Below the pieces are notes generated by a model. That model saw nothing but the letters and a program-made list of their open reading frames with translations. It was not told the DNA's origin and made no database searches. Positions 33,838-57,079 of a DNA stretch of 64,000 nucleotides are shown here, in pieces. The stretch is from Flectonema sp. DT1601. Its lineage: Eukaryota. The position numbers and the translations under genes were made by a program. Each line of letters starts with the position of its first letter. The first letter of the stretch is position 1. The stretch is taken from positions 310,001-374,000 of the forward strand of contig OZ025786.1 in NCBI GenBank assembly GCA_964019425.1, read 5' to 3'.

Positions 33838-34068
33838 CAAAAGGCACTGTATCCAGATTGTTAAATTATCGTTTACGTTAATATGATAAAATACAGTTGT
33901 ATTTTCACAAATATAAATATTGAATTTCCCCCCGAAAATCGAGATTAATTTAAAACAAAAAAAAAAGTAGCATATTTTTCAACAACAGCGTCAATAATAA
34001 CGATTAGGAATGATCTCATCTCAATTGGCCAAAATGCGAGAATCGGTAATCCAAAAAAAAAAAAAAGA

Positions 34069-34102
<34 letters not shown>

Positions 34103-36413: not shown

Positions 36414-36768
36414 ATGATTATCAGCATTGTTTTTTCGCCCGGCCATAGTTGCAGGTGTCGGAAGCAGTGCCACGGCTTTTGCCGCACCCACCCTTCAAGT
36501 GAGAACCGCAAAGAAAGTTGCGGATTAACCTGTCAACAACTAAACAACTCCGAAAAATAACAACGGGGGCGTCGTCCACCCGTACAACTTATTTATCGAA
36601 AAGTATTTAGTCAAGCGGAGTCTTAAGAAGAAGCCGTCGAAGTACGCTCTTTTTACGAAGAAGAACTTTGCCTCCGCCTTCGCGGATGCGAAGAAGACGA
36701 ACTCTAACATCAAGGCAGCTTTCAAAGTTGCATCCGCGGCTGTTTCAAAGACCTACAAGAGCCAGTAG
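36414..36768 (+). pseudogene. Deleted, frameshifted relic of the H1-like/HMG (KAP-like) gene family
   Basis: Contains VAGVGSSATAFAAPTLQVRTAKKVAD* out of frame with ATG 36414, then PYNLFIEK fused directly to SLKKKPSKYALFTKKNFASAFADAKKTNSNIKAAFKVASAAVSKTYKSQ*. Confidence 0.8.
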
Positions 36769-37190
36769 CGTCTGTTTGTTGCTTCAACTCGTTCATGGGA
36801 TTCTTAAGAATAGTTCTCTGGTTTTTTAAAATTGGGAATGCACAGGTAACTTCGAATTATTATTTTCCCGTCATCATTGCATACAGAATACACATTACAT
36901 TTTGTCTATTGTTTCTGAAAAAAAGCAATCCTACAAGCACTGCAGTCAACGTTGATTACTTATTACACATACCTTTCTTTTTCACGATTCTCTTCCACAG
37001 CCTTTTTGTATTTTTTAGTACTCGTGTTGTTTTTAGTTAATCAAATAAACTACTCCTTCGTTAGGCTTTCTTTTTTCAATTTTACTCGCAGAGTATCTGT
37101 TGAAGGCTGGAGATGTTCAAACTTTGTTTAGTTTAATGAATCTATATGTCTTGCATTTACGACTTGTTCTTCAAGCTTCCAACCCCCAAA

Positions 37191-38010
37191 ATGAACACCC
37201 TCCGCATTGTGTCTCGTCAGGTGAGAGCGCTGACTATTATTGCAGGTGTCATAAGCAGCGCTACCCTTCAGGTGAGAACTGCAAAAAAGAGGGTTATTGT
37301 GAAGCCTGTTGGTGAAGTAGTATTAGAGAAAGATGTTACCAAAAAGGAAGATGCGATGCTATTCACACCAGATTGGAAGACCACAGGTGTCAAGACAGCT
37401 GTTACTACAAAAGAGACGCCTGCCATACCAGCTGAAAGTGCAACTACTGAGAATACAAAGATAATTGCTCAAATGAGAAAAAATCTTTGGAAGTCTGTTC
37501 GGAAGAAGAGAAGCGATCTCAAGCAGAAAGCTGCTGAGAAGAGGGCCGCTGTTCGGAAAAACAAGGAAATTGAGAAAACTATCAAGTCCTCTGGTGCCGT
37601 AAACCCGTACACCTTATTCGTCCAGAGGTCTATTTCTGGAAATGTGAAAACTAATTTAAGGTGCGTGGCTGCAGCATGGAAGGTGTGTTGTGTAGTACTT
37701 TTGAATAGGTCGACAGAACAATGCGATTAATCAACAACAGGCTTTGAGTGAGGGACAGAAGAAGACTTACCGTGACCAAGCGAAGAAGAACCTCGCCGCA
37801 AGAAATGTCATCAAGCAGAGTCTTAAGAGTAACCCTTCACAGTACGCTCTATTTATGAAAAAGCATTTTGCTGCCGCCTTCACAGAGGCACAGAAGACGA
37901 ACCCTGACTCAAAGGCAGCTTTCAAGGTTGCATCTGAGGCTGTTGCAAAGAAGTACAAAGTGCTGAAAGGAAAAGTTGTTATGAAGATACATGAAGAAGG
38001 CTATCAATAA
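37191..38010 (+). CDS. Diverged KAP-like HMG-box paralog lacking the Lys/Ala repeats (~253 aa); exons 37191-37682 and 37741-38010
   Basis: Same MNTLRIVSRQVRALT presequence. The 58-nt GTGTGT...CAACAG intron sits at the same phase-0 position (AAWK|ALSEGQKKTY). Confidence 0.85.
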
Positions 38011-38049
38011 TTAAACTCATACAACTCACATTTCGCCAATAGACCACTG

Positions 38050-38110
38050 TAAAAACTACCTTAAAGCACGTTGCTGCTGAATGGAAGGTATGTGCTTTGT
38101 AATTGTTACT
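38050..38110 (+). pseudogene. Small relic of the exon-1 end and intron donor of the same family
   Basis: aaaactaccttaaagcacgttgctgctgaatggaag-gtatgt encodes KTTLKHVAAEWK followed by the donor; array spacer sequence follows from ~38115. Confidence 0.6.
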
Positions 38111-38511
38111 CCGAATTTCGCAAGCCGCGACTGAGATAGTTCTCGGAAGCTGTAATCGGGTTTATTCTTCGCAAATTGGGTGTCGCAGAACGGCGAGGTA
38201 ATTGAAAACCTGCGTAGAACGAACGATTAAAGTACAACCAGTTAGATTGTGTGTAGGCTAACATTGGTTCTTAGAAACCTTTCCCTATCTTTGTGTATTG
38301 TTTCTTAAAGGATTTTATCTAAACGATACTTTGTAATTTAAATGATGACACTCTCGTTTCTGAACATAGTTGGCACAGCTGCTGCAATGATTGTTGAGAA
38401 TCTTGTTCGGAAGCACCTTACTACTGTTGTCTTTCTTGAACCATTGATTACAGAGTGTCCCTCGCCGTCAGCTTCTTCCCACAGATTCAAACACCCGTTT
38501 TCTTTCAAAAA

Positions 38512-39789
38512 ATGAACACCCTCCGCATTGTGTCTCGTCAGGTGAGAGCGCTGACTGTTGTTGCAGGTGTCAGAAGCAGCGCCCCGGCATTTGCCGCGCC
38601 CACCCTTCAAGTGAGAACCGCAAAGAAGGTTGCGAAGAAGCCAGTGAAGAAGGTTAAGAAGGTTGTGGCAAAGAAGGTGAAGAAGGCCGCTTCCAAGAAG
38701 CCGGTGAAGAAGGTTAAGTCTGTCTCCCTTAAGAAAAACGCCGCAAAGAAGGTTGCTGCTGCTAAGAAGGCCGTCGCTTTGAAGAAGGCAGCAGCTGCTA
38801 AGAAGGCCGTCGTTTTGAAGAAGGCAGCAGCTGCTAAGAAGGCCGTCGCTTTGAAAAAGGCAGCAGCTGCTAAGAAGGCCGTCGCTTTGAAGAAGGCAGC
38901 TGTTGCTAGAGCAGCGAAGAAGGCGGGAATTGCCAAGAAAGCAAAGAGAGTTGCTGAATTGAAGGCAAAGAAGACAGCGAAGAAGGAGAGACTTGCAAAG
39001 AAGGCTGTTGCGTTGAGAAAGAAGACTGCTGCACAGACAGCCAGAGTTGCGAAGAAGAATGCCGCGGTGAAGGCTGTGAAGGCTGCTAGAAGAGCAAGAA
39101 TCGCAAAGAGGAAGGCCGCTCTTAAGGCTAAGGCTGCTGGTAAGAGAGCAAGAATCGCAAAGAAGAAGGCCGCTCTTAAGGCTAAGGCTGCTGGTAAGAG
39201 AGCAAGAATCGCAAAGAAGAAAGCTGCGGTGAAGGCTGTGAAGGCTGCTAGAAGAGCAAGAATCGCAAAGAAGAGAGACGCAAAGAGAGAGAAGCTTGCC
39301 AAGAAGAGAGCCGCTGTTCAGAAGAAGAGGGACGCGAAAAAAGCCATTAAGGCTTCTGGAGCCGTAAGCCCTTACTCCTTATTTGTGCAGAAGACTACTT
39401 CCGGCAAGAAGGTTATGACTGACTTAAAATCTGTAGCTGCCGAATGGAATGTATGTATTGCGTAGTAATTACGAGTAAAGTTTATATTTCTTGCTGTTTT
39501 AATTCGGAATTACAAGTTCCTTTCTGAGTTTGAAATCAGAGATTTGATAATTCAACAACAGGCATTGAGTGAGGGACAGAAGAAGACTTACCGTGACCAA
39601 GCGAAGAAGAACCTCGCCGCAAGAAATGCCACCAGGCAGAGTCTTAAGAAGAAGCCGACGAAGTACGCTGTCTTTGTGAAGAAGAACTTTGCCGCCGCCT
39701 TCGCGGATGCGAAGAAGACTAACTCTAACATCAAGGCAGCTTTCAAAGTTGCATCCGCGGCTGTTGCAAAGAAGTACAAGAGCCAGTAA
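38512..39789 (+). CDS. Mitochondrial-type H1-like/HMG-box DNA-binding protein (KAP-like), copy 1, 388 aa; exons 38512-39450 and 39562-39789
   Basis: Arg-rich acid-free N-terminus and K/A repeats. Removing the 111-nt GTATGT...CAACAG intron restores the HMG-like PYSLFVQ...KSVAAEWN|ALSEGQKKTYRDQA. Confidence 0.9.
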
Positions 39790-40467
39790 AGGATGAATAT
39801 TTGGACAAGATCCTCCCAGTAGTAACTTAGTGTTATTACTCTGCCCCAACCCCAGTTGTTTATTTCCCTCAGTTTCTCCCCCCCTCTGTATTTCGCAAGC
39901 CGCGACTGAGATAGTTCTCGGAAGCTGTAATCGGGTTTATTCTTCGCATATTGGGTGTCGAGAAAAGGCGAGGTAATTGAAAACCTGCGTAGAACGAACG
40001 ATTAAAGTACAACCAGTTAGATTGTGTGTAGGCTAACATTGGTTCTTAGAATCTCTTTTTAGACATTTCTTTTTTTTTTTTCATTTTCTTCCATTTCATC
40101 GGTATAACAATTCGAGGTGTCTCTTGTTCTCTGTGTCTGTGTTGACTGTGTGAATTGAGAGCCTTTCGTATTTGTTATTCATTTCAAACGATAACAAGTA
40201 ATTGTGATTATTGTGAATTCGTAAAACTCATTTTCTTCAAGGGAAAGCAAGATGATGTCATTTTGAAGGGCGATGGTTGTGTAAGTAGAGATGGCTCTTC
40301 ACCATTTTCACTAACTGTGTACATTGTGACACAGCTGCTGCAATGATTGTTGAGAATCTTGTTCGGAAGCACCTTACTACTGTTGTCTTTCTTGAACCAT
40401 TGATTACAGAGTGTCCCTCGCCGTCAGCTTCTTCCCACAGATTCAAACACCCGTTTTCTTTCAAAAA

Positions 40468-41691
40468 ATGAACACCCTCCGCATTGTATCTCGTCAGGTG
40501 AGAGCGCTGACTGTTGTTGCAGGTGTCAGAAGCAGCGCCCCGGCATTTGCCACGCCCACCCTTCAAGTGAGAACCGCAAAGAAGGTTGCGAAGAAGCCAG
40601 TGAAGAAGGTTAAGAAGGTTGTGGCAAAGAAGGTGAAGAAGGCCGCTTCCAAGAAGCCGGTGAAGAAGGTTAAGTCTGTCTCCCTTAAGAAAAACGCCGC
40701 AAAGAAGGTTGCTGCTGCTAAGAAGGCCGTTGCTTTGAAGAAGGCAGCAGCTGCTAAGAAGGCCGTCGTTTTGAAGAAGGCAGCAGCTGCTAAGAAGGCC
40801 GTCGCTTTGAAAAAGGCAGCAGCTGCTAAGAAGGCCGTCGCTTTGAAGAAGGCAGCTGTTGCTAGAGCAGCGAAGAAGGCGGGAATTGCCAAGAAAGCAA
40901 AGAGAGTTGCTGAATTGAAGGCAAAGAAGACAGCGAAGAAGGAGAGACTTGCAAAGAAGGCTGTTGCGTTGAGAAAGAAGACTGCTGCACAGAGAGCCAG
41001 AGTTGCGAAGAAGAATGCCGCGGTGAAGGCTGTGAAGGCTGCTAGAAGAGCAAGAATCGCAAAGAGGAAGGCCGCTCTTAAGGCTAAGGCTGCTGGTAAG
41101 AGAGCAAGAATCGCAAAGAAGAAAGCTGCGGTGAAGGCTGTGAAGGCTGCTAGAAAAGCAAGAATCGTAAAGAAGAGAGACGCAAAGAGAGAGAAGCTTG
41201 CCAAGAAGAGAGCCGCTGTTCAGAAGAAGAGGGACGCGAAGAAAGCCATTAAGGCTTCTGGAGCCGTAAGCCCTTTCACCTTATTTGTGCAGAAATCTAC
41301 TTCCGGCATGAAGGTTAAGACTGACTTAAAATCTGTAGCTGCCGAATGGAATGTATGTATTGCGTAGTAATTACGAGTAAAGTTTATATTTCTTGCTGTT
41401 TTAATTCGGAATTACAAGTTCCTTTCTGAGTTTGAAATCAGAGATTTGATAATTCAACAACAGGCATTGAGTGAGGGACAGAAGAAGACTTACCGTGACC
41501 AAGCGAAGAAGAACCTCGCCGCAAGAAATGCCACCAGGCAGAGTCTTAAGAAGAAGCCGACGAAGTACGCTGTCTTTGTGAAGAAGAACTTTGCCGCCGC
41601 CTTCGCGGATGCGAAGAAGACTAACTCTAACATCAAGGCAGCTTTCAAAGTTGCATCCGCGGCTGTTGCAAAGAAGTACAAGAGCCAGTAA
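40468..41691 (+). CDS. KAP-like H1/HMG protein, copy 2, 370 aa; exons 40468-41352 and 41464-41691
   Basis: Same structure as copy 1. Confidence 0.9.
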
Positions 41692-42367
41692 AGGATGAAT
41701 ATTTGGACAAGATCCTCCCAGTAGTAACTTAGTGTTATTACTCTGCCCCAACCCCAGTTGTTTATTTCCCTCAGTTTCTCCCCCCTCTGTATTTCGCAAG
41801 CCGCGACTGAGATAGTTCTCGGAAGCTGTAATCGGGTTTATTCTTCGCATATTGGGTGTCGAGAAAAGGCGAGGTAATTGAAAACCTGCGTAGAACGAAC
41901 GATTAAAGTACAACCAGTTAGATTGTGTGTAGGCTAACATTGGTTCTTAGAATCTCTTTTTAGACATTTCTTTTTTTTTTTCATTTTCTTCCATTTCATC
42001 GGTATAACAATTCGAGGTGTCTCTTGTTCTCTGTGTCTGTGTTGACTGTGTGAATTGAGAGCCTTTCGTATTTGTTATTCATTTCAAACGATAACAAGTA
42101 ATTGTGATTATTGTTAATTTGTAAAACTCATTTTCTTCAAGGGAAAGCAAGATGATGTCATTTTGAAGGGCGATGGTTGTGTAAGTAGAGATGGCTCTTC
42201 ACCATTTTCACTAACTGTGTACATTGTGACACAGCTGCTGCAATGATTGTTGAGAATCTTGTTCGGAAGCACCTTACTACTGTTGTCTTTCTTGAACCAT
42301 TGATTACAGAGTGTCCCTCGCCGTCAGCTTCTTCCCACAGATTCAAACACCCGTTTTCTTTCAAAAA

Positions 42368-43582
42368 ATGAACACCCTCCGCATTGTGTCTCGTCAGGTG
42401 AGAGCGCTGACTGTTGTTGCAGGTGTCAGAAGCAGCGCCCCGGCATTTGCCGCGCCCACCCTTCAAGTGAGAACCGCAAAGAAGGTTGCGAAGAAGCCAG
42501 TGAAGAAGGTTAAGAAGGTTGTGGCAAAGAAGGTGAAGAAGGCCGCTTCCAAGAAGCCGGTGAAGAAGGTTAAATCTGTCTCCCTTAAGAAAAACGCCGC
42601 AAAGAAGGTTGCTGCTGCTAAGAAGGCCGTTGCTTTGAAGAAGGCAGCAGCTGCTAAGAAGGCCGTCGCTTTGAAGAAGGCAGCTGTTGCTAGAGCATCG
42701 AAGAAGGCGGGAATTGCCAAGAAAGCAAAGAGAGCTGCTGAATTGAAGGTAAAGAAGACAGCGAAGAAGGAGAGAATTGCAAAGAAGGCTGTTGCGTTGA
42801 GAAAGAAGACTGCTGCACATAGAGCCAGAATTGCGAAGAAGAATGCTGCGGTGAAGGCGGTGAAGGCTGTGAAGGCTGCTAGAAAAGCAAGAATCGCAAA
42901 GAGGAAGGCCGCTCTTAAGGCTAAGGCTGCTGGTAAGAGAGCAAGAATCGCAAAGAGGAAGGCCGCTCTTAAGGCTAAGGCAGCTGGTAAGAGAGCAGGA
43001 ATTGCAAAGAAGAAAGCTGCGGTGAAGGCTGTGAAGGCTGCTAGAAGTGCAAGAATCGCAAAGAAGAGAGACGCAAAGAGAGAGAAGCTTGCCAAGAAGA
43101 GAGCCGCTGTTCAGAAGAAGAGGGACGCGAAGAAAGCCATTAAGGCTTCTGGAGCCGTAAGCCCTTTCACATTATTTGTGCAGAAATCTACTTCCGGCAT
43201 GAAGGTTAAGACTGACTTAAAATCTGTAGCTGCCGAATGGAATGTATGTATTGCGGAGTAATTACGAGTAAAGTTTATATTTCTTGCTGTTTTAATTCGG
43301 AATTACAAGTTCCTTTCTGAGTTTGAAATCAGAGATTTGATAATTCAACAACAGGCATTGAGTGAGGGACAGAAGAAGACTTACCGTGACCAAGCGAAGA
43401 AGAACCTCGCCGCAAGAAATGCCACCAGGCAGAGTCTTAAGAAGAAGCCGACGAAGTACGCTGTCTTTGTGAAGAAGAACTTTGCCGCCGCCTTCGCGGA
43501 TGCGAAGAAGACTAACTCTAACATCAAGGCAGCTTTCAAAGTTGCATCCGCGGCTGTTGCAAAGAAGTACAAGAGCCAGTAA
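42368..43582 (+). CDS. KAP-like H1/HMG protein, copy 3, 367 aa; exons 42368-43243 and 43355-43582
   Basis: Same structure as copy 1. Confidence 0.9.
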
Positions 43583-44260
43583 AGGATGAATATTTGGACA
43601 AGATCCTCCCAGTAGTAACTTAGTGTTATTACTCTGCCCCAACCCCAGTTGTTTATTTCCCTCAGTTTCTCCCCCCCTCTGTATTTCGCAAGCCGCGACT
43701 GAGATAGTTCTCGGAAGCTGTAATCGGGTTTATTCTTCGCATATTGGGTGTCGAGAAAAGGCGAGGTAATTGAAAACCTGCGTAGAACGAACGATTAAAG
43801 TACAACCAGTTAGATTGTGTGTAGGCTAACATTGGTTCTTAGAAACTCTTTTTAGACATTTCTTTTTTTTTTTTCATTTTCTTCCATTTCATCGGTATAA
43901 CAATTCGAGGTGTCTCTTGTTCTCTGTGTCTGTGTTGACTGTGAGAATTGAGAGCCTTTCGTATTTGTTATTCATTTCAAACGATAACAAGTAATTGTGA
44001 TTATTGTGAATTCGTAAAACTCATTTTCTTCAAGGGAAAACAAGATGATGTCATTTTGAAGGGCGATGGTTGTGTAAGTAGAGATGGCTCTTCACCATTT
44101 TCACTAACTGTGTACATTGTGACACAGCTTCTGCAATGATTGTTGAGAATCTTGTTCGGAAGCACCTTACTACTGTTGTCTTTCTTGAACCATTGATTAC
44201 AGAGTGTCCCTCGCCGTCAGCTTCTTCCCACAGATTCAAACACCCGTTTTCTTTCAAAAA

Positions 44261-45592
44261 ATGAACACCCTCCGCATTGTGTCTCGTCAGGTGAGAGCGC
44301 TGACTGTTGTTGCAGGTGTCAGAAGCAGCGTCCCGGCATTTGCCGCGCCCACCCTTCAAGTGAGAACCGCAAAGAAGGTTGCGAAGAAGCCAGTGAAGAA
44401 GGTTAAGAAGGTTGTGGCAAAGAAGGTGAAGAAGGCCGCTTCCAAGAAGCCGGTGAAGAAGGTTAAGTCTGTCTCCCTTAAGAAAAACGCCGCAAAGAAG
44501 GTTGCTGCTGCTAAGAAGGCCGTTGCTTTGAAGAAGGCAGCAGCTGCTAAGAAGGCCGTCGTTTTGAAGAAGGCAGCAGCTGCTAAGAAGGCCGTCGCTT
44601 TGAAAAAGGCAGCAGCTGCTAAGAAGGCCGTCGCTTTGAAGAAGGCAGCTGTTGCTAGAGCAGCGAAGAAGGCGGGAATTGCCAAGAAAGCAAAGAGAGT
44701 TGCTGAATTGAAGGCAAAGAAGACAGCGAAGAAGGAGAGACTTGCAAAGAAGGCTGTTGCGTTGAGAAAGAAGACTGCTGCACAGAGAGCCAGAGTTGCA
44801 AAGAAGAATGCCGCGGTGAAGGCTGTGAAGGCTGCTAGAAAAGCAAGAATCGCAAAGAGGAAGGCCGCTCTTAAGGCTAAGGCTGCTGGTAAGAGAGCAA
44901 GAATCGTAATGAAGAAGGCCGCTCTTAAGGCTAAGGCTGCTGGTAAGAGAGCAAGAATCGTAATGAAGAAGGCCGCTCTTAAGGCTAAGGCTGCTGGTAA
45001 GAGAGCAAGAATCGTAAAGAAGAAGGCAGCTCTTAAGGCTAAGGCTGCTGGTAAGAGAGCAAGAATCGCAAAGAAGAGAGACGCAAAGAGAGAGAAGCTT
45101 GCCAAGAAGAGAGCCGCTGTTCAGAAAAAGAGGGACTCGAAGAAAGCCATTAAGGCCTCTGGAGCAGTAGGCCCTTACTCCTTATTTGTGCAGAAGACTA
45201 CTTCCGGCAAGAAGGGTATGACTGACTTAAAATCTGTAGCTGCCGAATGGAATGTATGTATTGCGTAGTAATTACGAGTAAAGTTTATATTTCTTGCTGT
45301 TTTAATTCGGAATTACAAGTTCCTTTCTGAATTTGAAATCAGAGATTTGATAATTCAACAACAGGCATTGAGTGAGGGACAGAAGAAGACTTACCGTGAC
45401 CAAGCGAAGAAGAACCTCGCCGCAAGAAATGCCACCAGGCAGAGTCTTAAGAAGAAGCCGACGAAGTACGCTGTCTTTGTGAAGAAGAACTTTGCCGCCG
45501 CCTTCGCGGATGCGAAGAAGACTAACTCTAACATCAAGGCAGCTTTCAAAGTTGCATCCGCGGCTGTTGCAAAGAAGTACAAGAGCCAGTAA
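44261..45592 (+). CDS. KAP-like H1/HMG protein, copy 4, 406 aa; exons 44261-45253 and 45365-45592
   Basis: Same structure as copy 1; longest repeat region. Confidence 0.9.
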
Positions 45593-46270
45593 AGGATGAA
45601 TATTTGGACAAGATCCTCCCAGTAGTAACTTAGTGTTATTACTCTGCCCCAACCCCAGTTGTTTATTTCCCTCAGTTTCTCCCCCCCTCTGTATTTCGCA
45701 AGCCGCGACTGAGATAGTTCTCGGAAGCTGTAATCGGGTTTATTCTTCGCATATTGGGTGTCGAGAAAAGGCGAGGTAATTGAAAACCTGCGTAGAACGA
45801 ACGATTAAAGTACAACCAGTTAGATTGTGTGTAGGCTAACATTGGTTCTTAGAATCTCTTTTTAGACATTTCTTTTTTTTTTTTCATTTTCTTCCATTTC
45901 ATCGGTATAACAATTCGAGGTGTCTCTTGTTCTCTGTGTCTGTGTTGACTGTGTGAATTGAGAGCCTTTCGTATTTGTTATTCATTTCAAACGATAACAA
46001 GTAATTGTGATTATTGTGAATTCGTAAAACTCATTTTCTTCAAGGGAAAGCAAGATGATGTCATTTTGAAGGGCGATGGTTGTGTAAGTAGAGATGGCTC
46101 TTCACCATTTTCACTAACTGTGTACATTGTGACACAGCTGCTGCAATGATTGTTGAGAATCTTGTTCGGAAGCACCTTACTACTGTTGTCTTTCTTGAAC
46201 CATTGATTACAGAGTGTCCCTCGCCGTCAGCTTCTTCCCACAGATTCAAACACCCGTTTTCTTTCAAAAA

Positions 46271-47449
46271 ATGAACACCCTCCGCATTGTGTCTCGTCAG
46301 GTGAGAGCGCTGACTGTTGTTGCAGGTGTCAGAAGCAGCGCCCCGGCATTTGCCGCGCCCACCCTTCAAGTGAGAACCGCAAAGAAGGTTGCGAAGAAGC
46401 CAGTGAAGAAGGTTAAGAAGGTTGTGGCAAAGAAGGTGAAGAAGGCCGCTTCCAAGAAGCCGGTGAAGAAGGTTAAGTCTGTCTCCCTTAAGAAAAACGC
46501 CGCAAAGAAGGTTGCTGCTGCTAAGAAGGCCGTTGCTTTGAAGAAGGCAGCAGCTGCTAAGAAGGCCGTCGTTTTGAAGAAGGCAGCAGCTGCTAAGAAG
46601 GCCGTCGCTTTGAAAAAGGCAGCAGCTGCTAAGAAGGCCGTCGCTTTGAAGAAGGCAGCTGTTGCTAGAGCAGCGAAGAAGGCGGGAATTGCCAAGAAAG
46701 CAAAGAGAGCTGCTGAATTGAAGGCAAAGAAGACAGCGAAGAAGGAGAGACTTGCAAAGAAGGCTGTTGCGTTGAGAAAGAAGACTGCTGCACAGAGAGC
46801 CAGAGTTGCGAAGAAGAATGCCGCGGTGAAGGCGGTGAAGGCTGTGAAGGCTGCTAGAAGAGCAAGAATCGCAAAGAGGAAGGCCGCTCTTAAGGCTAAG
46901 GCTGCTGGCAAGAGAGCAAGAATCGCAAAGAAGAGAGACGCAAAGAGAGAGAAGCTTGCCAAAAAGAGAGCCGCTGTTCAGAAGAAGAGGGACGCGAAGA
47001 AAGCCATTAAGGCCTCTGGAGCCGTAAGCCCTTTCACCTTATTTGTGCAGAAATCTACTTCCGGCAAGAAGGTTAAGACTGACTTAAAATCTGTAGCTGC
47101 CGAATGGAATGTATGTATTGCGTAGTAATTACGAGTAAAGTTTATATTTCTTGCTGTTTTAATTCGGAATTACAAGTTCCTTTCTGAATTTGAAATCAGA
47201 GATTTGATAATTCAACGACAGGCATTGAGTGAGGGACAGAAGAAGACTTACCGTGACCAAGCGAAGAAGAACCTCGCCGCAAGAAATGCCACCAAGCAGA
47301 GTCTTAAGAAGAAACCGACGAAGTACGCTCTTTTCACGAAGAAGAACTTTGCCGCCGCCTTCGCGGATGCGAAGAAGACTAACTCTAACATCAAGGCAGC
47401 TTTCAAAGTTGCATCCGCGGCTGTTGCAAAGAAGTACAAGAGCCAGTAA
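46271..47449 (+). CDS. KAP-like H1/HMG protein, copy 5, 355 aa; exons 46271-47110 and 47222-47449
   Basis: Same structure as copy 1. Confidence 0.9.
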
Positions 47450-48128
47450 AGGATGAATATTTGGACAAGATCCTCCCAGTAGTAACTTAGTGTTATTACT
47501 CTGCCCCAACCCCAGTTGTTTATTTCCCTCAGTTTCTCCCCCCCTCTGTATTTCGCAAGCCGCGACTGAGATAGTTCTCGGAAGCTGTAATCGGGTTTAT
47601 TCTTCGCATATTGGGTGTCGAGAAAAGGCGAGGTAATTGAAAACCTGCGTAGAACGAACGATTAAAGTACAACCAGTTAGATTGTGTGTAGGCTAACATT
47701 GGTTCTTAGAAACTCTTTTTAGACATTTCTTTTTTTTTTTTTCATTTTCTTCCATTTCATCGGTATAACAATTCGAGGTGTCTCTTGTTCTCTGTGTCTG
47801 TGTTGACTGTGAGAATTGAGAGCCTTTCGTATTTGTTATTCATTTCAAACGATAACAAGTAATTGTGATTATTGTGAATTCGTAAAACCCATTTTCTTCA
47901 AGGGAAAGCAAGATGATGTCATTTTGAAGGGCGATGGTTGTGTAACTAGAGATGGCTCTTCACCATTTTCACTAACTGTGTACATTGTGACACAGCTGCT
48001 GCAATGATTGTTGAGAATCTTGTTCGGAAGCACCTTACTACTGTTGTCTTTCTTGAACCATTGATTACAGAGTGTCCCTCGCCGTCAGCTTCTTCCCACA
48101 GATTTAAACACCCGTTTTCTTTCAAAAA

Positions 48129-49334
48129 ATGAACACTCTCCGCATTGTGTCTCGTCAGGTGAGAGCGCTGACTGTTGTTGCAGGTGTCAGAAGCAGCGCC
48201 CCGGCATTTGCCACGCCCACCCTTCAAGTGAGAACCGCAAAGAAGGTTGCGAAGAAGCCAGTGAAGAAGGTTAAGAAGGTTGTGGCAAAGAAGGTGAAGA
48301 AGGCCGCTTCCAAGAAGCCGGTGAAGAAGGTTAAGTCTGTCTCCCTTAAGAAAAACGCCGCAAAGAAGGTTGCTGCTGCTAAGAAGGCCGTTGCTTTGAA
48401 GAAGGCAGCAGCTGCTAAGAAGGCCGTCGCTTTGAAGAAGGCAGCTGTTGCTAGAGCATCGAAGAAGGCGGGAATTGCCAAGAAAGCAAAGAGAGTTGCT
48501 GAATTGAAGGCAAAGAAGACAGCGAAGAAGGAGAGACTTGCAAAGAAGGCTGTTGCGTTGAGAAAGAAGACTGCTGCACAGAGAGCCAGAGTTGCAAAGA
48601 AGAATACCGCGGTGAAGGCTGTGAAGGCTGCTAGAAAAGCAAGAATCGCAAAGAGGAAGGCCGCTCTTAAGGCTAAGGCTGCTGGTAAGAGAGCAAGAAT
48701 CGCAAAGAAGAAGGCCGCTCTTAAGGCTAAGGCTGCTGGTAAGAGAGCAAGAATCGCAAAGAAGAAAGCTGCGGTGAAGGCTGTGAAGGATGCTAGAAGA
48801 GCAAGAATCGCAAAGAAGAGAGACGCAAAGAGAGAGAAGCTTGCCAAGAAGAGAGCCGCTGTTCAGAAAAAGAGGGACGCGAAGAAAGCCATTAAGGCCT
48901 CTGGAGCAGTAGGCCCTTACTCCTTATTTGTGCAGAAGACTACTTCCGGCAAGAAGGGTATGACTGACTTAAAATCTGTAGCTGCCGAATGGAATGTATG
49001 TATTGCGTAGTAATTACGAGTAAAGTTTATATTTCTTGCTGTTTTAATTCGGAATTACAAGTTCCTTTCTGAATTTGAAATCAGAGATTTGATAATTCAA
49101 CAACAGGCATTGAGTGAGGGACAGAAGAAGACTTACCGTGACCAAGCGAAGAAGAACCTCGCCGCAAGAAATGCCACCAGGCAGAGTCTTAAGAAGAAGC
49201 CGACGAAGTACGCTGTCTTTGTGAAGAAGAACTTTGCCGCCGCCTTCGCGGATGCGAAGAAGACGAACTCTAACATCAAGGCAGCTTTCAAAGTTGCATC
49301 CGCGGCTGTTGCAAAGAAGTACAAGAGCCAGTAA
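48129..49334 (+). CDS. KAP-like H1/HMG protein, copy 6, 364 aa; exons 48129-48995 and 49107-49334
   Basis: Same structure as copy 1. An in-frame TAA upstream of this ATG supports MNTLR as the true start in all copies. Confidence 0.9.
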
Positions 49335-50012
49335 AGGATGAATATTTGGACAAGATCCTCCCAGTAGTAACTTAGTGTTATTACTCTGCCCCAACCCCAG
49401 TTGTTTATTTCCCTCAGTTTCTCCCCCCCTCTGTATTTCGCAAGCCGCGACTGAGATAGTTCTCGGAAGCTGTAATCGGGTTTATTCTTCGCATATTGGG
49501 TGTCGAGAAAAGGCGAGGTAATTGAAAACCTGCGTATAACGAACGATTAAAGTACAACCAGTTAGATTGTGTGTAGGCTAACATTGGTTCTTAGAAACTC
49601 TTTTTAGACATTTCTTTTTTTTTTTTCATTTTCTTCCATTTCATCGGTATAACAATTCGAGGTGTCTCTTGTTCTCTGTGTCTGTGTTGACTGTGAGAAT
49701 TGAGAGCCTTTCGTATTTGTTATTCATTTCAAACGATTATAAGTAATTGTGATTATTGTGAATTCGTAAAACTCATTTTCTTCAAGGGAAAACAAGATGA
49801 TGTCATTTTGAAGGGCGATGGTTGTGTAAGTAGAGATGGCTCTTCACCATTTTCACTAACTGTGTACATTGTGACACAGCTGCTGCAATGATTGTTGAGA
49901 ATCTTGTTCGGAAGCACCTTACTACTGTTGTCTTTCTTGAACCATTGATTACAGAGTGTCCCTCGCCGTCAGCTTCTTCCCACAGATTCAAACACCCGTT
50001 TTCTTTCAAAAA

Positions 50013-51236
50013 ATGAACACCCTCCGCATTGTGTCTCGTCAGGTGAGAGCGCTGACTGTTGTTGCAGGTGTCAGAAGCAGCGCCCCGGCATTTGCCACGC
50101 CCACCCTTCAAGTGAGAACCGCAAAGAAGGTTGCGAAGAAGCCAGTGAAGAAGGTTAAGAAGGTTGTGGCAAAGAAGGTGAAGAAGGCCGCTTCCAAGAA
50201 GCCGGTGAAGAAGGTTAAGTCTGTCTCCCTTAAGAAAAACGCCGCAAAGAAGGTTGCTGCTGCTAAGAAGGCCGTCGCTTTGAAGAAGGCAGCTGTTGCT
50301 AGAGCAGCGAAGAAGGCGGGAATTGCCAAGAAAGCAAAGAGAGTTGCTGAATTGAAGGCAAAGAAGACAGCGAAGAAGGAGAGACTTGCAAAGAAGGCTG
50401 TTGCGTTGAGAAAGAAGACTGCTGCACAGAGAGCCAGAGTTGCGAAGAAGAATGCTGCGGTGAAGGCTGTGAAGGCTGCTAGAAGAGCAAGAATCGCAAA
50501 GAGGAAGGCCGCTCTTAAGGCTAAGGCTGCTGGCAAGAGAGCAAGAATCGCAAAGAAGAAGGCCGCCCTTAAGGCTAAGGCAGCTGGTAAGAGAGCAAGA
50601 ATTGCAAAGAAGAAGGCCGCCCTTAAGACTAAGGCAGCTGGTAAGAGAGCAAGAATTGCAAAGAAGAATGCTGCGGTAAAGGCTGTGAAGGCTGCTAGAA
50701 GAGCAAGAATCGTAAAGAAGAGAGACGCAAAGAGAGAGAAGCTTGCCAAGAAGAGAGCCGCTGTTCAGAAGAAGAGGGACGCGAAGAAAGCCATTAAGGC
50801 CTCTGGAGCAGTAGGCCCTTACTCCTTATTTGTGCAGAAGACTACTTCCGGCAAGAAGGTTAAGACTGACTTAAAATCTGTAGCTGCCGAATGGAATGTA
50901 TGTATTGCGTAGTAATTACGAGTAAAGTTTATATTTCTTACTGTTTTAATTCGGAATTACAAGTTCCTTTCTGAATTTGAAATCAGAGATTTAATTAATC
51001 AACAACAGGCATTGAGTGAGGGACAGAAGAAGACTTACCGTGACCAAGCGAAGAAGAACCTCGCCGCAAGAAATGCCACCAGGCAGAGTCTTAAGAAGAA
51101 GCCGACGAAGTACGCTGTCTTTGTGAAGAAGAACTTTGCCGCCGCCTTCGCGGATGCGAAGAAGACTAACTCTAACATCAAGGCAGCTTTCAAAGTTGCA
51201 TCCGCGGCTGTTGCAAAGAAGTACAAGAGCCAGTAA
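50013..51236 (+). CDS. KAP-like H1/HMG protein, copy 7, 370 aa; exons 50013-50897 and 51009-51236
   Basis: Same structure as copy 1. Confidence 0.9.
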
Positions 51237-51912
51237 AGGATGAATATTTGGACAAGATCCTCCCAGTAGTAACTTAGTGTTATTACTCTGCCCCATCCCC
51301 AGTTGTTTATTTCCCTCAGTTTCTCCCCCCTCTGTATTTCGCAAGCCGCGACTGAGATAGTTCTCGGAAGCTGTAATCGGGTTTATTCTTCGCATATTGG
51401 GTGTCGAGAAAAGGCGAGGTAATTGAAAACCTGCGTAGAACGAACGATTAAAGTACAACCAGTTAGATTGTGTGTAGTCTAAAATTGGTTCTTATAAATT
51501 CTTTTTAGACATTTCTTTTTTTTATTCATTTTCTTCCATTTCCTCGGTATAACAATTCGAGGTGTCTCTTGTTCTCTGTGTCTGTGTTGACTGTGTGAAT
51601 TGAGAGCCTTTCGTATTTGTTATTCATTTCAAACGATAACAAGTAATTGTGATTATTGTGAATTCGTAAAACGCATTTTCTTCAAGGGAAAGCAAGATGA
51701 TGTCATTTTGAAGGGCGATGGTTGTGTAAGTAGAGATGGCTCTTCATCATTTTCACTAACTGTGTACATTGTGACACAGCTGCTGCAATGATTGTTGAGA
51801 ATCTTGTTCGGAAGCACCTTACTACTGTTGTCTTTCTTGAACCATTGATTACAGAGTGTCCCTCGCCGTCAGCTTCTTCCCACAGATTCAAACACCCGTT
51901 TTCTTTCAAAAA

Positions 51913-53073
51913 ATGAACACCCTCCGCATTGTGTCTCGTCAGGTGAGAGCGCTGACTGTTGTTGCAGGTGTCAGAAGCAGCGCCCCGGCATTTGCCACGC
52001 CCACCCTTCAAGTGAGAACCGCAAAGAAGGTTGCGAAGAAGCCAGTGAAGAAGGTTAAGAAGGTTGTGGCAAAGAAGGTGAAGAAGGCCGCTTCCAAGAA
52101 GCCGGTGAAGAAGGTTAAATCTGTCTCCCTTAAGAAAAACGCCGCAAAGAAGGTTGCTGCTGCTAAGAAGGCCGTCGCTTTGAAGAAGGCAGCAGCTGCT
52201 AAGAAGGCCGTCGCTTTGAAGAAGGCAGCTGTTGCTAGAGCAGCGAAGAAGGCGGGAATTGCCAAGAAAGCAAAGAGAGCTGCTGAATTGAAGGCAAAGA
52301 AGACAGCGAAGAAGGAGAGACTTGCAAAGAAGGCTGTTGCGTTAAGAAAGAAGACTGCTGCACAGAGAGCCAGAGTTGCGAAGAAGAATGCTGCGGTGAA
52401 GGCGGTGAAGGCTGTGAAGGCTGCTAGAAGAGCAAGAATCGCAAAGAAGAAGGCCGCTCTTAAGGCTAAGGCTGCTGGTAAGAGAGCAAGAATCGCAAAG
52501 AAGAAAGCTGCGGTGAAGGCTGTGAAGGCTGCTAGAAAAGCAAGAATCGTAAAGAAGAGAGACGCAAAGAGAGAGAAGCTTGCCAAGAAGAGAGCCGCTG
52601 TTCAGAAAAAGAGGGACGCGAAGAAAGCCATTAAGGCCTCTGGAGCAGTAGGCCCTTACTCCTTATTTGTGCAGAAGACTACTTCCGGCAAGAAGGTTAA
52701 GACTGACTTAAAATCTGTAGCTGCCGAATGGAATGTATGTATTGCGTAGTAATTACGAGTAAAGTTTATATTTCTTGCTGTTTTAATTCGGAATTACAAG
52801 TTCCTTTCTGAGTTTGAAATCAGAGATTTGATAATTCAACAACAGGCATTGAGTGAGGGACAGAAGAAGACTTACCGTGACCAAGCGAAGAAGAACCTCG
52901 CCGCAAGAAATGCCACCAGGCAGAGTCTTAAGAAGAAGCCGACGAAGTACGCTGTCTTTGTGAAGAAGAACTTTGCCGCCGCCTTCGCGGATGCGAAGAA
53001 AACGAACTCTAACATCAAGGCAGCTTTCAAAGTTGCATCCGCGGCTGTTGCAAAGAAGTACAAGAGCCAGTAA
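51913..53073 (+). CDS. KAP-like H1/HMG protein, copy 8, 349 aa; exons 51913-52734 and 52846-53073
   Basis: Same structure as copy 1. Confidence 0.9.
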
Positions 53074-53752
53074 AGGATGAATATTTGGACAAGATCCTCC
53101 CAGTAGTAACTTAGTGTTATTACTCTGCCCCAACCCCAGTTGTTTATTTCCCTCAGTTTCTCCCCCCCTCTGTATTTCGCAAGCCGCGACTGAGATAGTT
53201 CTCGGAAGCTGTAATCGGGTTTATTCTTCGCATATTGGGTGTCGAGAAAAGGCGAGGTAATTGAAAACCTGCGTAGAACGAACGATTAAAGTACAACCAG
53301 TTAGATTGTGTGTAGGCTAACATTGGTTCTTAGAATCTCTTTTTAGACATTTCTTTTTTTTTTTTTCATTTTCTTCCATTTCCTCGGTGTAACAATTCGA
53401 GGTGTCTCTTGTTCTCTGTGTCTGTGTTGACTGTGTGAATTGAGAGCCTTTCGTATTTGTTATTCATTTCAAACGATAACAAGTAATTGTGATTATTGTG
53501 AATTCGTAAAACTCATTTTCTTCAAGGGAAAGCAAGATGATGTCATTTTGAAGGGCGATGGTTGTGTAAGTAGAGATGGCTCTTCACCATTTTAACTAAC
53601 TGTGTACATTGTGACACAGCTGCTGCAATGATTGTTGAGAATCTTGTTCGGAAGCACCTTACTACTGTTGTCTTTCTTGAACCATTGATTACAGAGTGTC
53701 CCTCGCCGTCAGCTTCTTCCCACAGATTCAAACACCCGTTTTCTTTCAAAAA

Positions 53753-54982
53753 ATGAACACCCTCCGCATTGTATCTCGTCAGGTGAGAGCGCTGACTGTT
53801 GTTGCAGGTGTCAGAAGCAGCGCCCCGGCATTTGCCGCGCCCACCCTTCAAGTGAGAACCGCAAAGAAGGTTGCGAAGAAGCCAGTGAAGAAGGTTAAGA
53901 AGGTTGTGGCAAAGAAGGTGAGGAAGGCCGCTTCCACGAAGCCGGTGAAGAAGGTTAAGTCTGTCTCCCTTAAGAAAAACGCCGCAAAGAAGGTTGCTGC
54001 TGCAAAGAAGGCCGTCGCTTTGAAGAAGGCAGCAGCTGCCAAGAAGGCCGTCGCTTTGAAGAAGGCAGCTGTTGCTAAGAAGGCCGTCGCTTTGAAGAAG
54101 GCAGCTGTTGCTAGAGCATCGATGAAGGCGGGAATTGCCAAGAAAGCAAAGAGAGCTGCTGAATTGAAGGCAAAGAAGACAGCGAAGAAGGAGGATAAGG
54201 CTGCGCTTAGCTCCAAGGCTGCGAGTAAGAGATCAAAACTCTCAATAAAGAAGGCCGCTGTGAATGATGCGATGAAAGCAAGGCTCGCAAGTACGAATAC
54301 TGCGCTTGGGGCTAAGGCTGCAAGAATCGCAAAGAAGAGGGCCGCTGTGGCCAAAGCAAGACTCACAAGGAAGAGGATCGCTGTGATGTTGAAGGCTTCC
54401 AGGAAGAGAGCTGCTCTGAAGGCCAAAGCTTCCAGGAAGAGAGCAGTACTCGCAAAGAAGAGTGCCGCTCTGAAGCGCAAGATTACCGAAAAGCAGGCCG
54501 CTGTTCAGAAGAAGAGAGAAGTTAACAAAGACATCAAGGCATCTGGTGCCGTAAGACCATACTCCTTGTTTATCCAGAAGACTACTTCGGGAACTAAAGT
54601 GAAACCTAATTTAATGTCCATAGCTGCCGAATGGAATGTATGTATTGCGTAGTAATTACGAGTAAAGTTTATATTTCTTGCTGTTTTAATTCGGAATTAC
54701 AAGTTCCTTTCTGAGTTTGAAATCAGAGATTTGATAATTCAACAACAGGCATTGAGTGAGGGACAGAAGAAGACTTACCGTGACCAAGCGAAGAAGAACC
54801 TCGCCGCAAGAAATGCCACCAGGCAGAGTCTTAAGAAGAAGCCGACGAAGTACGCTCTTTTTACGAAGAAGAACTTTGCCGCCGCCTTCGCGGATGCGAA
54901 GAAGACGAACTCTAACATCAAGGAAGCTTTCAAAGTTGCATCCGCGGCTGTTGCAAAGAAGTACAGAGCCAGTAAAGGATGA
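53753..54982 (+). CDS. KAP-like H1/HMG protein, copy 9, variant, 372 aa; exons 53753-54637 and 54749-54982
   Basis: Diverged middle (EDKAALSSKAASKRS...NLMSIAAEWN); a 1-nt deletion changes the C-terminus to KYRASKG*. Confidence 0.85.
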
Positions 54983-55927
54983 ATATTTGGACAAGATCCT
55001 CCCAGTAGTAACTTAGTGAAAGGATGCATTTGTGGCATATGATAAAAGTAGAGAATGTCTTGCATCAGGTAATGGGATAACTGTTTTTGTGAATTCTGAC
55101 TGTGAAATTTAACAAGCCATTCGGTATTTTCATGTTAATAAGTGAAAGACTGCTTAAATTAGGAGTGACGGAAAATGAATAACAAAATAATTCATCATTC
55201 TCCCAGTGGTGACTTATTCGTCACTAATGCTAAATGCGTATGATTCTTTTTTAAATTCTTTTTACTTTGTATAAAAAAACAAGAATTTAAAAAGTTATGA
55301 CGGCCTCAATTTAGTAGGGCTACTGACTCATACTTACCTGTAGCTGATTTGACCGAACCCTATTTTAGTTTTTTCTTTTTATTTTTTAAGTTCAAGTTGC
55401 GTTGCATTTAATTGCAGTATCAAGTTACCACTTTGCGCAAGGGTAATTGAAAACCTGCGTAGAACGAACGATTAAAGTACAACCAGTTAGATTGTGTGTA
55501 GGCTAACATTGGTTCTTAGAATCTCTTTTTAGACATTTCTTTTTCGATTGCATTCCGCGTTTCCACGGTATTGGAATTCGCAGTCTCTTGTTCTTGATAT
55601 CTGTGTTGTGAGATTTGAGAGTCTTACGTATTTGTTATTCATTTCAAACGATAACAAGTATTTTTGATTATTGTGAATTCGTAAAACTCATTTTCTTCAA
55701 GGGAAAGCAAGATGATGTCATTTTGAAGGGCGATGGTTGTGTAAGTAGAGATGGCTCTTCACCATTTTCACTAACTGTGTACATTGTGACACAGCTGCTG
55801 CAATGATTGTTGAGAATCTTGTTCGGAAGCACCTTACTACTGTTGTCTTTCTTGAACCATTGATTACAGAGTGTCCCTCGCCGTCAGCTTCTTCCCACAG
55901 ATTCAAACACCCGTTTTCTTTCAAAAA

Positions 55928-57079
55928 ATGAACACCCTCCGCATTGTGTCTCGTCAGGTGAGAGCGCTGACTGTTGTTGCAGGTGTCAGAAGCAGCGTCC
56001 CGGCATTTGCCGCGCCCACCCTTCAAGTGAGAACCGCAAAGAAGGTTGCGAAGAAGCCAGTGAAGAAGGTTAAGAAGGTTGTGGCAAAGAAGGTGAAGAA
56101 GGCCGCTTCCAAGAAGCCGGTGAAGAAGGTTAAGTCTGTCTCCCTTAAGAAAAACGCCGCAAAGAAGGTTGCTGCTGCTAAGAAGGCCGTCGCTTTGAAG
56201 AAGGCAGCAGCTGCTAAGAAGGCCGTCGCTTTGAAGAAGGCAGCTGTTGCTAGAGCATCGAAGAAGGCGGGAATTGCCAAGAAAGCAAAGAGAGTTGCTG
56301 AATTGAAGGCAAAGAAGACAGCGAAGAAGGAGAGACTTGCAAAGAAGGCTGTTGCGTTGAGAAAGAAGACTGCTGCACAGAGAGCCAGAGTTGCGAAGAA
56401 GAAGGCCGCTCTTAAGGCTAAGGCTGCTGGTGTTAGAGCAGGAATCGCAAAGAAGAATGCTGCGGTGCAGGCTGTGAAGGCTGCTAGAAGAGCAAGAATC
56501 GCAAAGAAGAAGGCAGCTCTTAAGGCTAAGGCTGCTGGTAAGAGAGCAAGAATCGCAAAGAAGAGAGACGCAAAGAGAGAGAAACTTGCCAAGAAGAGAG
56601 CCACTGTTCAGAAGAAGAGGGATGCGAAGAAAGCCATTAAGGCCTCTGGTCCCGTAAGCCCTTACTCCTTATTTGTGCAGAAATCTACTTCCGGCAAGAA
56701 AGGAATGGCTAACTTGAAGTCTGTAGCTGCCGAATGGAATGTATGTATTGCGTAGTAATTACGAGTAAAGTTTATATTTCTTGCTGTTTTAATTCGGAAT
56801 TACAAGTTCCTTTCTGAATTTGAAATCAGAGATTTAATTAATCAACAACAGGCATTGAGTGAGGGACAGAAGAAGACTTACCGTGACCAAGCGAAGAAGA
56901 ACCTCGCCGCAAGAAATGCCACCAGGCAGAGTCTTAAGAAGAAGCCGACGAAGTACGCTCTTTTTACGAAGAAGAACTTTGCCGCCGCCTTCGCGGATGC
57001 GAAGAAGACGAACTCTAACATCAAGGCAGCTTTCAAAGTTGCATCCGCGGCTGTTTCAAAGAAGTACAAGAGCCAGTAA
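55928..57079 (+). CDS. KAP-like H1/HMG protein, copy 10, 346 aa; exons 55928-56740 and 56852-57079
   Basis: Same structure as copy 1; unique 3' flank marks the end of the array. Confidence 0.9.

What the first reader, a model, noticed from the sequence alone, without database searches (positions are those of the whole stretch)
37191..57079. Amplified array of candidate mitochondrial DNA-packaging proteins: presequence + histone-H1-like tail + two HMG-like boxes
Seen in sequence: ten tandem two-exon genes plus one diverged paralog. After splicing, each encodes (i) an Arg-rich, acid-free leader, MNTLRIVSRQVRALTVVAGVRSSAPAFAAPTLQVRTA; (ii) about 200-260 aa of almost pure Lys/Ala/Arg repeats; (iii) an HMG-box-like unit (PYSLFVQ...LKSVAAEWNALSEGQKKTYRDQA) and a second, truncated one (PTKYAVFVKKNFA...ASAAVAKKYK). 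Established: TFAM/Abf2 are twin-HMG mtDNA packagers; kinetoplastid KAPs are small basic H1-like/HMG-like mtDNA-binding proteins; diplonemids and kinetoplastids hold very large amounts of mtDNA. Inference: this is a dosage-amplified 'mitochondrial histone' locus, arrayed the way nuclear histone genes are, with a much longer H1-like arm than typical KAPs. ORF callers split it in two and hide the HMG box.
Basis: partly seen in the sequence, partly recalled or inferred. Interest (0 to 1): 0.9.

Follow-up and report, generated by a model that had tools for sequence, protein, structure and literature searches.

The report
Tandem diplonemid mitochondrial DNA-packing gene array
A marine protist carries ten nearly identical, head-to-tail genes for a very positively charged protein of a family already listed in diplonemids; it is predicted to enter the mitochondrion and likely packs its unusually large amount of DNA.

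Summary
The array is real: ten two-exon copies (346-406 aa), one diverged paralog and two gene remnants. Public contigs show the 111-nt intron removed and a euglenozoan spliced leader 28 nt before the ATG. The protein family is already published: Gray et al. 2025 (PMC12699882) list a 21-member mitochondrion-targeted Ala/Lys-rich HMG family in Diplonema papillatum; one member is 55% identical over our C-terminal 111 residues. Box 1 is a shortened HMG box by sequence profile and predicted fold; box 2 is only weakly HMG-like. The arm is H1-like in composition only and is predicted as one long helix. The layout matches Physarum Glom. KAP membership was not shown. Best reading: a bulk mtDNA-condensing protein, amplified for dosage (0.65; untested). 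Not found in print in my searches: the homogenised array, and a shared intron position that explains three D. papillatum 'linker histone H1/H5' entries as probable read-through models. The family bears on a preprint's claim that diplonemids lack mtDNA-bending proteins. Verdict: new member of a known kind.

The parts
36440..36769 (+). Gene remnant: end of leader, in-frame stops, part of box 1 and an intact box 2 reading; no arm
   Evidence: blastn of the unit and translation
37191..38010 (+). Diverged paralog g0, 253 aa; exons 37191-37682 and 37741-38010; 58-nt intron; short mixed-charge arm (net charge +34)
   Evidence: no contig covered it, so expression is untested
38030..38088 (+). Remnant of an exon-1 end (box 1 helix 2) followed by a GT donor
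38512..39789 (+). Copy 1, 388 aa; exons 38512-39450 and 39562-39789
   Evidence: junction in contigs of X1 and X3
38512..38622 (+). Predicted mitochondrial presequence of copy 1 (37 aa, 5 Arg, no Asp/Glu, ends in a Q-x-R motif shared with homologues)
   Evidence: homologues score as mitochondrial transit peptides in PMC12699882 supplement 1
38623..39354 (+). Lys/Ala/Arg-rich arm of copy 1 (244 aa) built from 36-nt and 54-nt internal repeats whose number varies between copies
   Evidence: predicted long helix in a homologue
39355..39640 (+). Box 1: shortened three-helix HMG box, split by the intron (approximate limits)
   Evidence: models of homologues
39451..39561 (+). 111-nt GT-AG phase-0 intron of copy 1
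39646..39786 (+). Box 2: two-helix unit that shares the helix-1 motif with box 1 and lacks a third helix (approximate limits)
40468..41691 (+). Copy 2, 370 aa; exons 40468-41352 and 41464-41691
41692..42081 (+). Probable 3' UTR (at least 390 nt), continuous with exon 2 in a spliced contig
   Evidence: X2 record 11
42339..42340 (+). Trans-splice acceptor AG, 28 nt before the ATG of copy 3; the same site precedes all ten copies
   Evidence: loose end matching the euglenozoan spliced leader; upstream sequences
42368..43582 (+). Copy 3, 367 aa; exons 42368-43243 and 43355-43582
44261..45592 (+). Copy 4, 406 aa; exons 44261-45253 and 45365-45592
46271..47449 (+). Copy 5, 355 aa; exons 46271-47110 and 47222-47449
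48129..49334 (+). Copy 6, 364 aa; exons 48129-48995 and 49107-49334
50013..51236 (+). Copy 7, 370 aa; exons 50013-50897 and 51009-51236
51913..53073 (+). Copy 8, 349 aa; exons 51913-52734 and 52846-53073
53753..54982 (+). Copy 9, 372 aa; exons 53753-54637 and 54749-54982; diverged distal arm and box 1, altered C-terminus, different downstream spacer
55928..57079 (+). Copy 10, 346 aa; exons 55928-56740 and 56852-57079

Best explanation
This is a homogenised tandem array of ten spliced genes of the diplonemid Ala/Lys-rich HMG family, whose products are predicted to be imported into the mitochondrion and likely condense its DNA in bulk. Shown: the array, cis-splicing, spliced-leader addition, and family membership. 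Inferred: the 37-aa leader is cleaved on import; box 1 binds and bends the minor groove with little sequence preference; box 2 acts as a second, weaker contact; the 200-260 aa arm (mature net charge +95 to +123) neutralises and bridges DNA segments, as the lysine-rich half of Physarum Glom does; and the tandem copies raise output under polycistronic transcription to match a very large mtDNA load.
For: Junction and spliced leader in public contigs. 55% identity over 111 aa to DIPPA_15346 and 70% over 112 aa to a Flectonema protein. All 20 D. papillatum family rows seen are predicted mitochondrial, and 7 of them carry the 'proteomics' mark. HMG-box proteins are 36 of 37 profile hits in the PDB (best E 0.005), 45 of 46 Foldseek rows shown and the first 17 VIA-align rows (Z 6.6-7.7); Abf2 aligns over both units (Z 7.1, rmsd 7.2, 112 residues). 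Glom has a lysine-rich N-half plus two C-terminal HMG boxes, and its lysine-rich part alone condenses mtDNA (review PMC7463775). KAP3 and poly-lysine condense kDNA (PMC7810991). Lys codons are AAG:AAA 878:84 in the array against 95:168 in nine other ORFs, with the intron at 30% GC, which fits high expression. D. papillatum holds about 256 Mbp of mtDNA (PMC6334171); neutralising it at +110 per protein would take about 4.7 million molecules, the same order as core histones for 280 Mb.
Against: No DNA-binding, compaction or localisation experiment exists for this organism. No protein reaches Pfam's HMG cut-off (best 22.1 of 25.4 bits), no Foldseek row reaches E 0.001, and Z stays under 8 with the first unrelated row at 6.5. 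Models are of two homologues, not the window's spliced protein. Box 2 has two helices and matches box 1 over 14 columns only (probability 4.7%). The leader's amphipathicity is not above shuffles (p 0.12). The 'proteomics' mark also covers proteins found with mitoribosome or respirasome preparations. No abundance values were found in the supplements. The mtDNA content of this organism is unknown, and contig depth cannot measure expression.
Confidence: 0.65

Rival explanations
1. The proteins are mitochondrial DNA maintenance factors (replication, recombination intermediates or segregation of the many circle classes) rather than bulk packagers.
For: Gray et al. suggest 'replication and/or maintenance'. 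TbKAP6 acts in kDNA replication, and yeast mtHMG proteins prefer junctions and forks over intact DNA.
Against: The arm is about two thirds of the mature protein and strongly cationic. The copy number and codon bias suggest a stoichiometric role. The two roles are not exclusive.
Confidence: 0.15
2. The proteins are mitochondrial RNA-binding chaperones that serve module trans-splicing, editing or the mitoribosome.
For: Polycationic arms bind RNA as well as DNA (established knowledge). The proteomics mark can come from mitoribosome preparations. Diplonemid mitochondria need many RNA-processing factors.
Against: The folded part matches DNA-binding HMG boxes. The paper files the family under DNA metabolism and not among its RNA-specificity candidates.
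Confidence: 0.1
3. The protein packs mtDNA, but the ten copies result from unselected unequal crossing-over, or the assembly inflates the copy number; dosage is not what is selected.
For: Units are about 98-99% identical in intron, leader, exon 2 and spacer and are recombinant mosaics (124 of 253 informative site pairs fail the four-gamete test). Remnants flank the array. D. papillatum has many tandem repeats of gene ends (PMC10161547). No long read was laid across the array.
Against: All ten genes are distinct, in frame and differ by whole repeat units. D. papillatum has about 21 members. Five close paralogs in another assembly share one contig length and form one clade, 100/99. So the family is amplified in several lineages.
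Confidence: 0.07
4. The proteins are nuclear or cytosolic linker-histone-like proteins and the leader is not a targeting signal.
For: H1-like composition; InterPro H1/H5 labels on some D. papillatum members; leader amphipathicity not above shuffles.
Against: Homologues score as mitochondrial in several predictors and some are marked as detected by proteomics. The leader is acid-free and conserved (62% over 42 columns to Flectonema). No Pfam H1 match appeared.
Confidence: 0.03

Closest known systems
Diplonema papillatum mitochondrial Ala,Lys-rich HMG-box family (Gray et al. 2025, PMC12699882; e.g. DIPPA_15346, DIPPA_11126, DIPPA_11176)
   Same: Leader ending in Q-x-R, long Ala/Lys arm, the same two-unit C-terminus (55% over 111 aa to DIPPA_15346), many near-identical members.
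   Different: Another species; arm richer in Arg and built from different repeats. The parts of the paper I read describe no tandem array, intron, fold model or packaging role ('nucleoid' and 'compaction' occur 0 times in its main text).
Glom of Physarum polycephalum
   Same: Mitochondrial protein with a lysine-rich N-terminal half and two C-terminal HMG boxes; condenses mtDNA (review).
   Different: Glom has a proline-rich domain that keeps DNA accessible; this arm has two prolines, and box 2 is truncated. No sequence comparison was possible, so the likeness may be convergent.
Kinetoplast-associated proteins (CfKAP1-4, TbKAP6)
   Same: Basic, Ala/Lys-rich, N-terminal presequence, H1-like or HMG-containing, act on mitochondrial DNA in the sister group.
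   Different: KAPs are small with a nine-residue presequence; these are 346-406 aa with a 37-aa leader. No kinetoplastid was among the named hits, and KAP1-4 queries found no diplonemid homologue in PMC11703244.
Abf2 / TFAM / Gcf1 twin-HMG mtDNA packagers
   Same: Box 1 aligns with TFAM box B (Z 7.3, rmsd 2.6, 61 residues); Abf2 spans both units.
   Different: Box 1 is shortened between helices 1 and 2 (alignment), box 2 lacks helix 3, and a very long cationic arm precedes them.
Linker histone H1/H5
   Same: Lys/Ala-rich composition.
   Different: No H1 globular domain match, no S/T-P-x-K motifs, predicted continuous helix.

Membership tests
Diplonemid mitochondrial Ala,Lys-rich HMG family (Gray et al. 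2025) | C-terminal ~80-100 aa motif like DIPPA_32963/DIPPA_15346 | tested here: met
   55% identity over 111 aa to P0005 = DIPPA_15346
Diplonemid mitochondrial Ala,Lys-rich HMG family (Gray et al. 2025) | Ala+Lys-rich composition (paper says >60%; listed members range from about 48% to 64%) | tested here: met
   Ala+Lys is 48-54% of the whole spliced proteins (counts), inside the range of the listed members though under the 60% quoted
Diplonemid mitochondrial Ala,Lys-rich HMG family (Gray et al. 2025) | Mitochondrial targeting peptide | tested here: inconclusive
   Arg-rich, acid-free 37-aa leader homologous to named members' leaders; amphipathicity p 0.12; no targeting predictor on hand
Diplonemid mitochondrial Ala,Lys-rich HMG family (Gray et al. 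2025) | Diplonemid host | tested here: met
   Euglenozoan spliced leader plus a cis intron; all named hits are diplonemids; nearest named rows in the tree are Flectonema
HMG-box superfamily | Three-helix L-shaped fold in box 1 | tested here: met
   Three helices at high pLDDT in two homologue models; first 17 VIA rows are HMG boxes, Z 6.6-7.7; scores are modest
HMG-box superfamily | Pfam HMG_box gathering score | tested here: not met
   Best 22.1 bits against 25.4; weak hits in 6 of 15 and 2 of 3 homologues; none for either exon of copy 1 alone
Twin-HMG mtDNA packagers (Abf2/TFAM type) | A second complete HMG box | tested here: not met
   Box 2 has two helices and ends at the C-terminus; only its helix-1 motif matches box 1
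Twin-HMG mtDNA packagers (Abf2/TFAM type) | Binds, bends and compacts mtDNA | not testable with these tools
   Needs biochemistry
Kinetoplast-associated proteins (KAPs) | Sequence homology to KAP1-7 | tested here: inconclusive
   No kinetoplastid among the 8 named of 20 hits from a single 75-aa query; no KAP sequence was available for a profile comparison
Kinetoplast-associated proteins (KAPs) | Small size with a short (nine-residue) presequence | tested here: not met
   346-406 aa with a 37-aa leader against the description in PMC5683618
Linker histone H1/H5 | Winged-helix globular domain | tested here: not met
   No such Pfam match; the folded part is HMG-like
Linker histone H1/H5 | Proline-rich tail with S/T-P-x-K motifs (feature recalled) | tested here: not met
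   0 motifs and 2 prolines in each of the ten arms

The most novel reading that the evidence does not exclude
Diplonemids have a true bulk 'mitochondrial chromatin' protein, amplified separately in each lineage in step with mtDNA load. Its long cationic helix would bridge the thousands of non-catenated circles, doing with protein what catenation does in kinetoplasts, and the unusually variable first half of box 1 would give the copies different DNA preferences.
Probability: 0.2. Interest if true: 0.7.

Novelty: new member of a known kind. Interest (0 to 1): 0.4.

Why it matters
Diplonemids hold some of the largest amounts of organellar DNA known (about 256 Mbp in D. papillatum), and how it is packed is open. 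A 2024 preprint found no mtDNA-binding proteins in diplonemids and proposed that DNA sequence mechanics replaces them; a 2025 paper lists this family without testing it. The array, codon bias and Glom-like layout make this family the obvious packaging candidate and give a direct test. The shared intron also indicates that three published 'linker histone H1/H5' entries are unspliced models of the same family, so genome annotation undercounts it.

Tried and rejected
No whole genome is held, so other copies in this genome and nuclear histone arrays could not be compared. Pfam on the separate exons of copy 1 gave nothing. Single-sequence PDB search with P0003 gave only low-complexity ribosomal hits. 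ESM Atlas: HMG clusters at 0.82, a lead only; nothing useful with HMG families skipped. Search for short relatives such as KAP-sized proteins: 0 of 22 candidates at E 1. Metagenome contig scan: 595 pattern matches, none confirmed; a second scan could not be built from the wider alignment. Rfam found no RNA family in the window, so the conserved spacer is not a known ncRNA; it is mostly UTR. The full-length model's fold search was filled by long helices and says nothing about the arm. P0020, 1 of 20 hits, is an unrelated repeat protein and was dropped. For the tree I used 17 stored proteins and left out P0004, P0010, P0014, P0020-P0023, P0025 and P0026 (fragments, duplicates or atypical). No contig covered 36000-38465, which is not evidence that g0 is silent. 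Read support for copies 9 and 10 remains untested. Earlier findings of the scan: none. The original Glom paper is not held and the KAP paper's supplements were unreadable. Pure assembly artefact rejected as unlikely because all copies are distinct and in frame. Positive selection on box 1 not claimed: synonymous and non-synonymous codon changes are both raised (11 and 12).
Full report
Observation. The array is there as described. Eleven related starts lie between 37191 and 55928 on the + strand, 1.3-2.2 kb apart. Each gene has one phase-0 GT-AG intron at the same place: 111 nt in ten copies and 58 nt in the diverged first gene. Spliced in a script, the ten copies give 346-406 aa proteins: a 37-aa leader, a 202-262 aa arm that is 65-75% Lys+Ala+Arg, and a C-terminal region of about 110 aa. 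All ten genes and proteins are distinct. Two remnants lie at about 36440-36769 and 38030-38088. Copy 9 is partly diverged and is followed by a different spacer.

Transcripts. Three public runs hold part of the unit; all are contigs. X3 skips 39451-39561 exactly with no other letters. X1, an RNA metatranscriptome, skips the same 111 nt in a contig with 31 other letters over 394, probably a relative or another copy. X2 joins the exon-1 end of copy 3 to an exon 2 placed at copy 2; exon 2 is identical in copies 1-4, so the simplest reading is the same splice. X2 also has a 20-letter loose end at 42340 that matches the 3' end of euglenozoan spliced leaders listed in PMC3795323 (one passage seen). 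It sits on an AG 28 nt before the ATG, and the same site precedes all ten copies. So the leader peptide is the real N-terminus, and X2 and X3 are probably RNA although their kind is not on record. Contigs cannot rank expression.

Family. Exon 2 finds 3 proteins at 65-68% and 20 representatives among 1.84 billion: one is the window's own g0 exon 2 and one is an unrelated repeat protein. The 8 named hits are from Diplonema papillatum, D. japonicum, D. ambulator and Flectonema neradi. One is DIPPA_15346, 55% identical over 111 C-terminal residues of spliced copy 1. Gray et al. 2025 (PMC12699882; abstract, passages, sections 26, 40 and 46, supplement 2 parts 13-14 and rows of supplement 1 seen) describe a 21-member mitochondrion-targeted Ala/Lys-rich family with a C-terminal HMG motif, find a comparable number across diplonemids, and suggest a role in mtDNA replication or maintenance. 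The listed sequences have the same layout. All 20 family rows I saw are predicted mitochondrial and 7 carry the proteomics mark; that mark includes proteins found with mitoribosome or respirasome preparations. The protein family is therefore known.

A correction to that list. Three of the four entries filed as 'linker histone H1/H5' (DIPPA_11093, 11161, 11158) are near-identical to the HMG members up to the aromatic residue and Lys of box 1 helix 2, then continue Val-Cys and stop. The window's unspliced frames do the same at the same place, because the donor reads Val-Cys. I infer a conserved intron and read-through gene models; I could not see the D. papillatum DNA. Fourteen of the 23 identifiers fall between 11093 and 11176, which hints at a cluster, but an unrelated gene carries 11099, so this is weak.

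Fold. I modelled two Flectonema homologues, P0001 (70% identical over 112 aa) and P0011 (45%). Both give three helices for box 1 and two for box 2 at high confidence; the arm of P0001 is one 113-residue helix. Long helices are an easy prediction for Ala/Lys sequences, so the arm may fold only on DNA (inference). HMG-box proteins make up 36 of 37 profile hits in the PDB (best E 0.005), 45 of 46 Foldseek rows shown (none at E 0.001) and the first 17 VIA-align rows (Z 6.6-7.7; first unrelated row 6.5). Each score is modest, and no protein reaches Pfam's cut-off, but the methods agree for box 1. Box 2 shares a 14-column helix-1 motif with box 1, which beats 60 of 60 column shuffles at only 4.7% probability. 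Abf2 aligns over both units with rmsd 7.2. Box 2 is best called a possible truncated HMG box. The arm has no S/T-P-x-K motif and two prolines, so it is H1-like in composition only.

Array evolution. Leaving out copy 9, diversity is 0.7% in the exon-1 head, 2.2% in the intron, 1.4% in exon 2 and 1.0% in the spacer, and 124 of 253 informative site pairs fail the four-gamete test: the copies are recombining mosaics. The last 99 nt of exon 1 (first half of box 1) are at 7.2%, with 19 variable sites (p 2e-8 against the other parts, region chosen after looking). The distal arm is also variable, and synonymous changes are raised with non-synonymous ones, so incomplete homogenisation explains it as well as selection does. 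In a 28-row tree the window's copies fall together with moderate support (80/83, along with one long Flectonema branch), and five paralogs from another assembly that share one contig length form their own clade (100/99). This fits separate amplification in different lineages. Tandem arrays are a common route to higher dosage under polycistronic transcription (recalled for trypanosomatids), so the arrangement is not in itself histone-specific.

Mechanism. Best reading (0.65): import, leader cleavage, HMG binding and bending, and charge neutralisation and bridging by the arm. The mature proteins carry +95 to +123. Physarum Glom has the same layout and its lysine-rich part alone condenses mtDNA (review PMC7463775, passages). 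KAP3 and poly-lysine condense kDNA (PMC7810991, passages). Codon use is strongly biased while the intron stays AT-rich. D. papillatum has about 256 Mbp of mtDNA (PMC6334171, passages), which would need about 4.7 million such molecules for full neutralisation; this organism's mtDNA content is unknown. Rivals are a maintenance factor, an RNA chaperone, unselected amplification and a non-mitochondrial protein.

KAPs. It likely works like a KAP or Glom, but KAP membership is not shown. No named hit is a kinetoplastid, size and leader length differ (PMC5683618, passages; PMC12395728, passages), and no KAP sequence was on hand. The preprint PMC11703244 (passages and section 7 read) found no KAP1-4 homologues in diplonemids and proposed that cyclizable DNA replaces bending proteins. 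This family is a counter-candidate, though I saw no named hemistasiid hit, which is where that claim centres.

Novelty. Seven paper searches found one paper on the family. In its main text 'tandem' occurs three times, and the places shown were in a reference title (12 of 32 places shown). I found no description of the array, the intron or a packaging test, but most subscription papers are not searched and supplement 2 was cut when stored. PMC10161547 (passages) gave general context on introns and repeats. Verdict: a new member of a known kind with useful added anatomy; interest 0.4.

Noticed in passing
window 39352-39450 and the matching part of each copy: The first half of box 1 is the most variable ungapped part of the unit; a Tyr-Ser versus Phe-Thr pair in helix 1 also differs between stored homologues P0001 and P0014.
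   Followed up: partly
PMC12699882 supplement 2: DIPPA_11093, DIPPA_11158, DIPPA_11161: Listed as linker histone H1/H5 proteins, but they end in Val-Cys at the position of this intron; probably read-through models of the HMG family.
   Followed up: partly
stored proteins P0012, P0013, P0015, P0016, P0024: Five close paralogs with arms of very different length share one contig length in another assembly; P0013 repeats box 1 and P0010 (Flectonema) repeats box 2.
   Followed up: partly
window 37191-38010: Diverged paralog keeps leader and boxes but has a short mixed-charge arm and a Trp-containing segment; may have a different role. Expression not seen in the three runs.
   Followed up: partly
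window 38109-38276 and 55442-55537: Pieces of the unit's spacer are kept at over 95% identity beyond the regular repeats; no Rfam match; lies within the probable 3' UTR.
   Followed up: partly
window 28572-29954: ORF joining a zeta-toxin-like P-loop kinase domain (E 5.5e-26) to a glutaredoxin domain (E 2.8e-9).
   Followed up: no
window 1161-2369, 8264-8986, 11649-13061, 57832-58572, 61724-62371: Neighbours: WW plus OTU protease, twin RRM, repeated Cys/His zinc-finger-like protein, F-box-like, FHA protein. All long ORFs are on the + strand, as expected for a polycistronic cluster.
   Followed up: no
window 13100-24400 and 30000-36400: Long AT-rich stretches with poly-T tracts and almost no ORF of 100 aa or more; may hold introns or small exons.
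   Followed up: no
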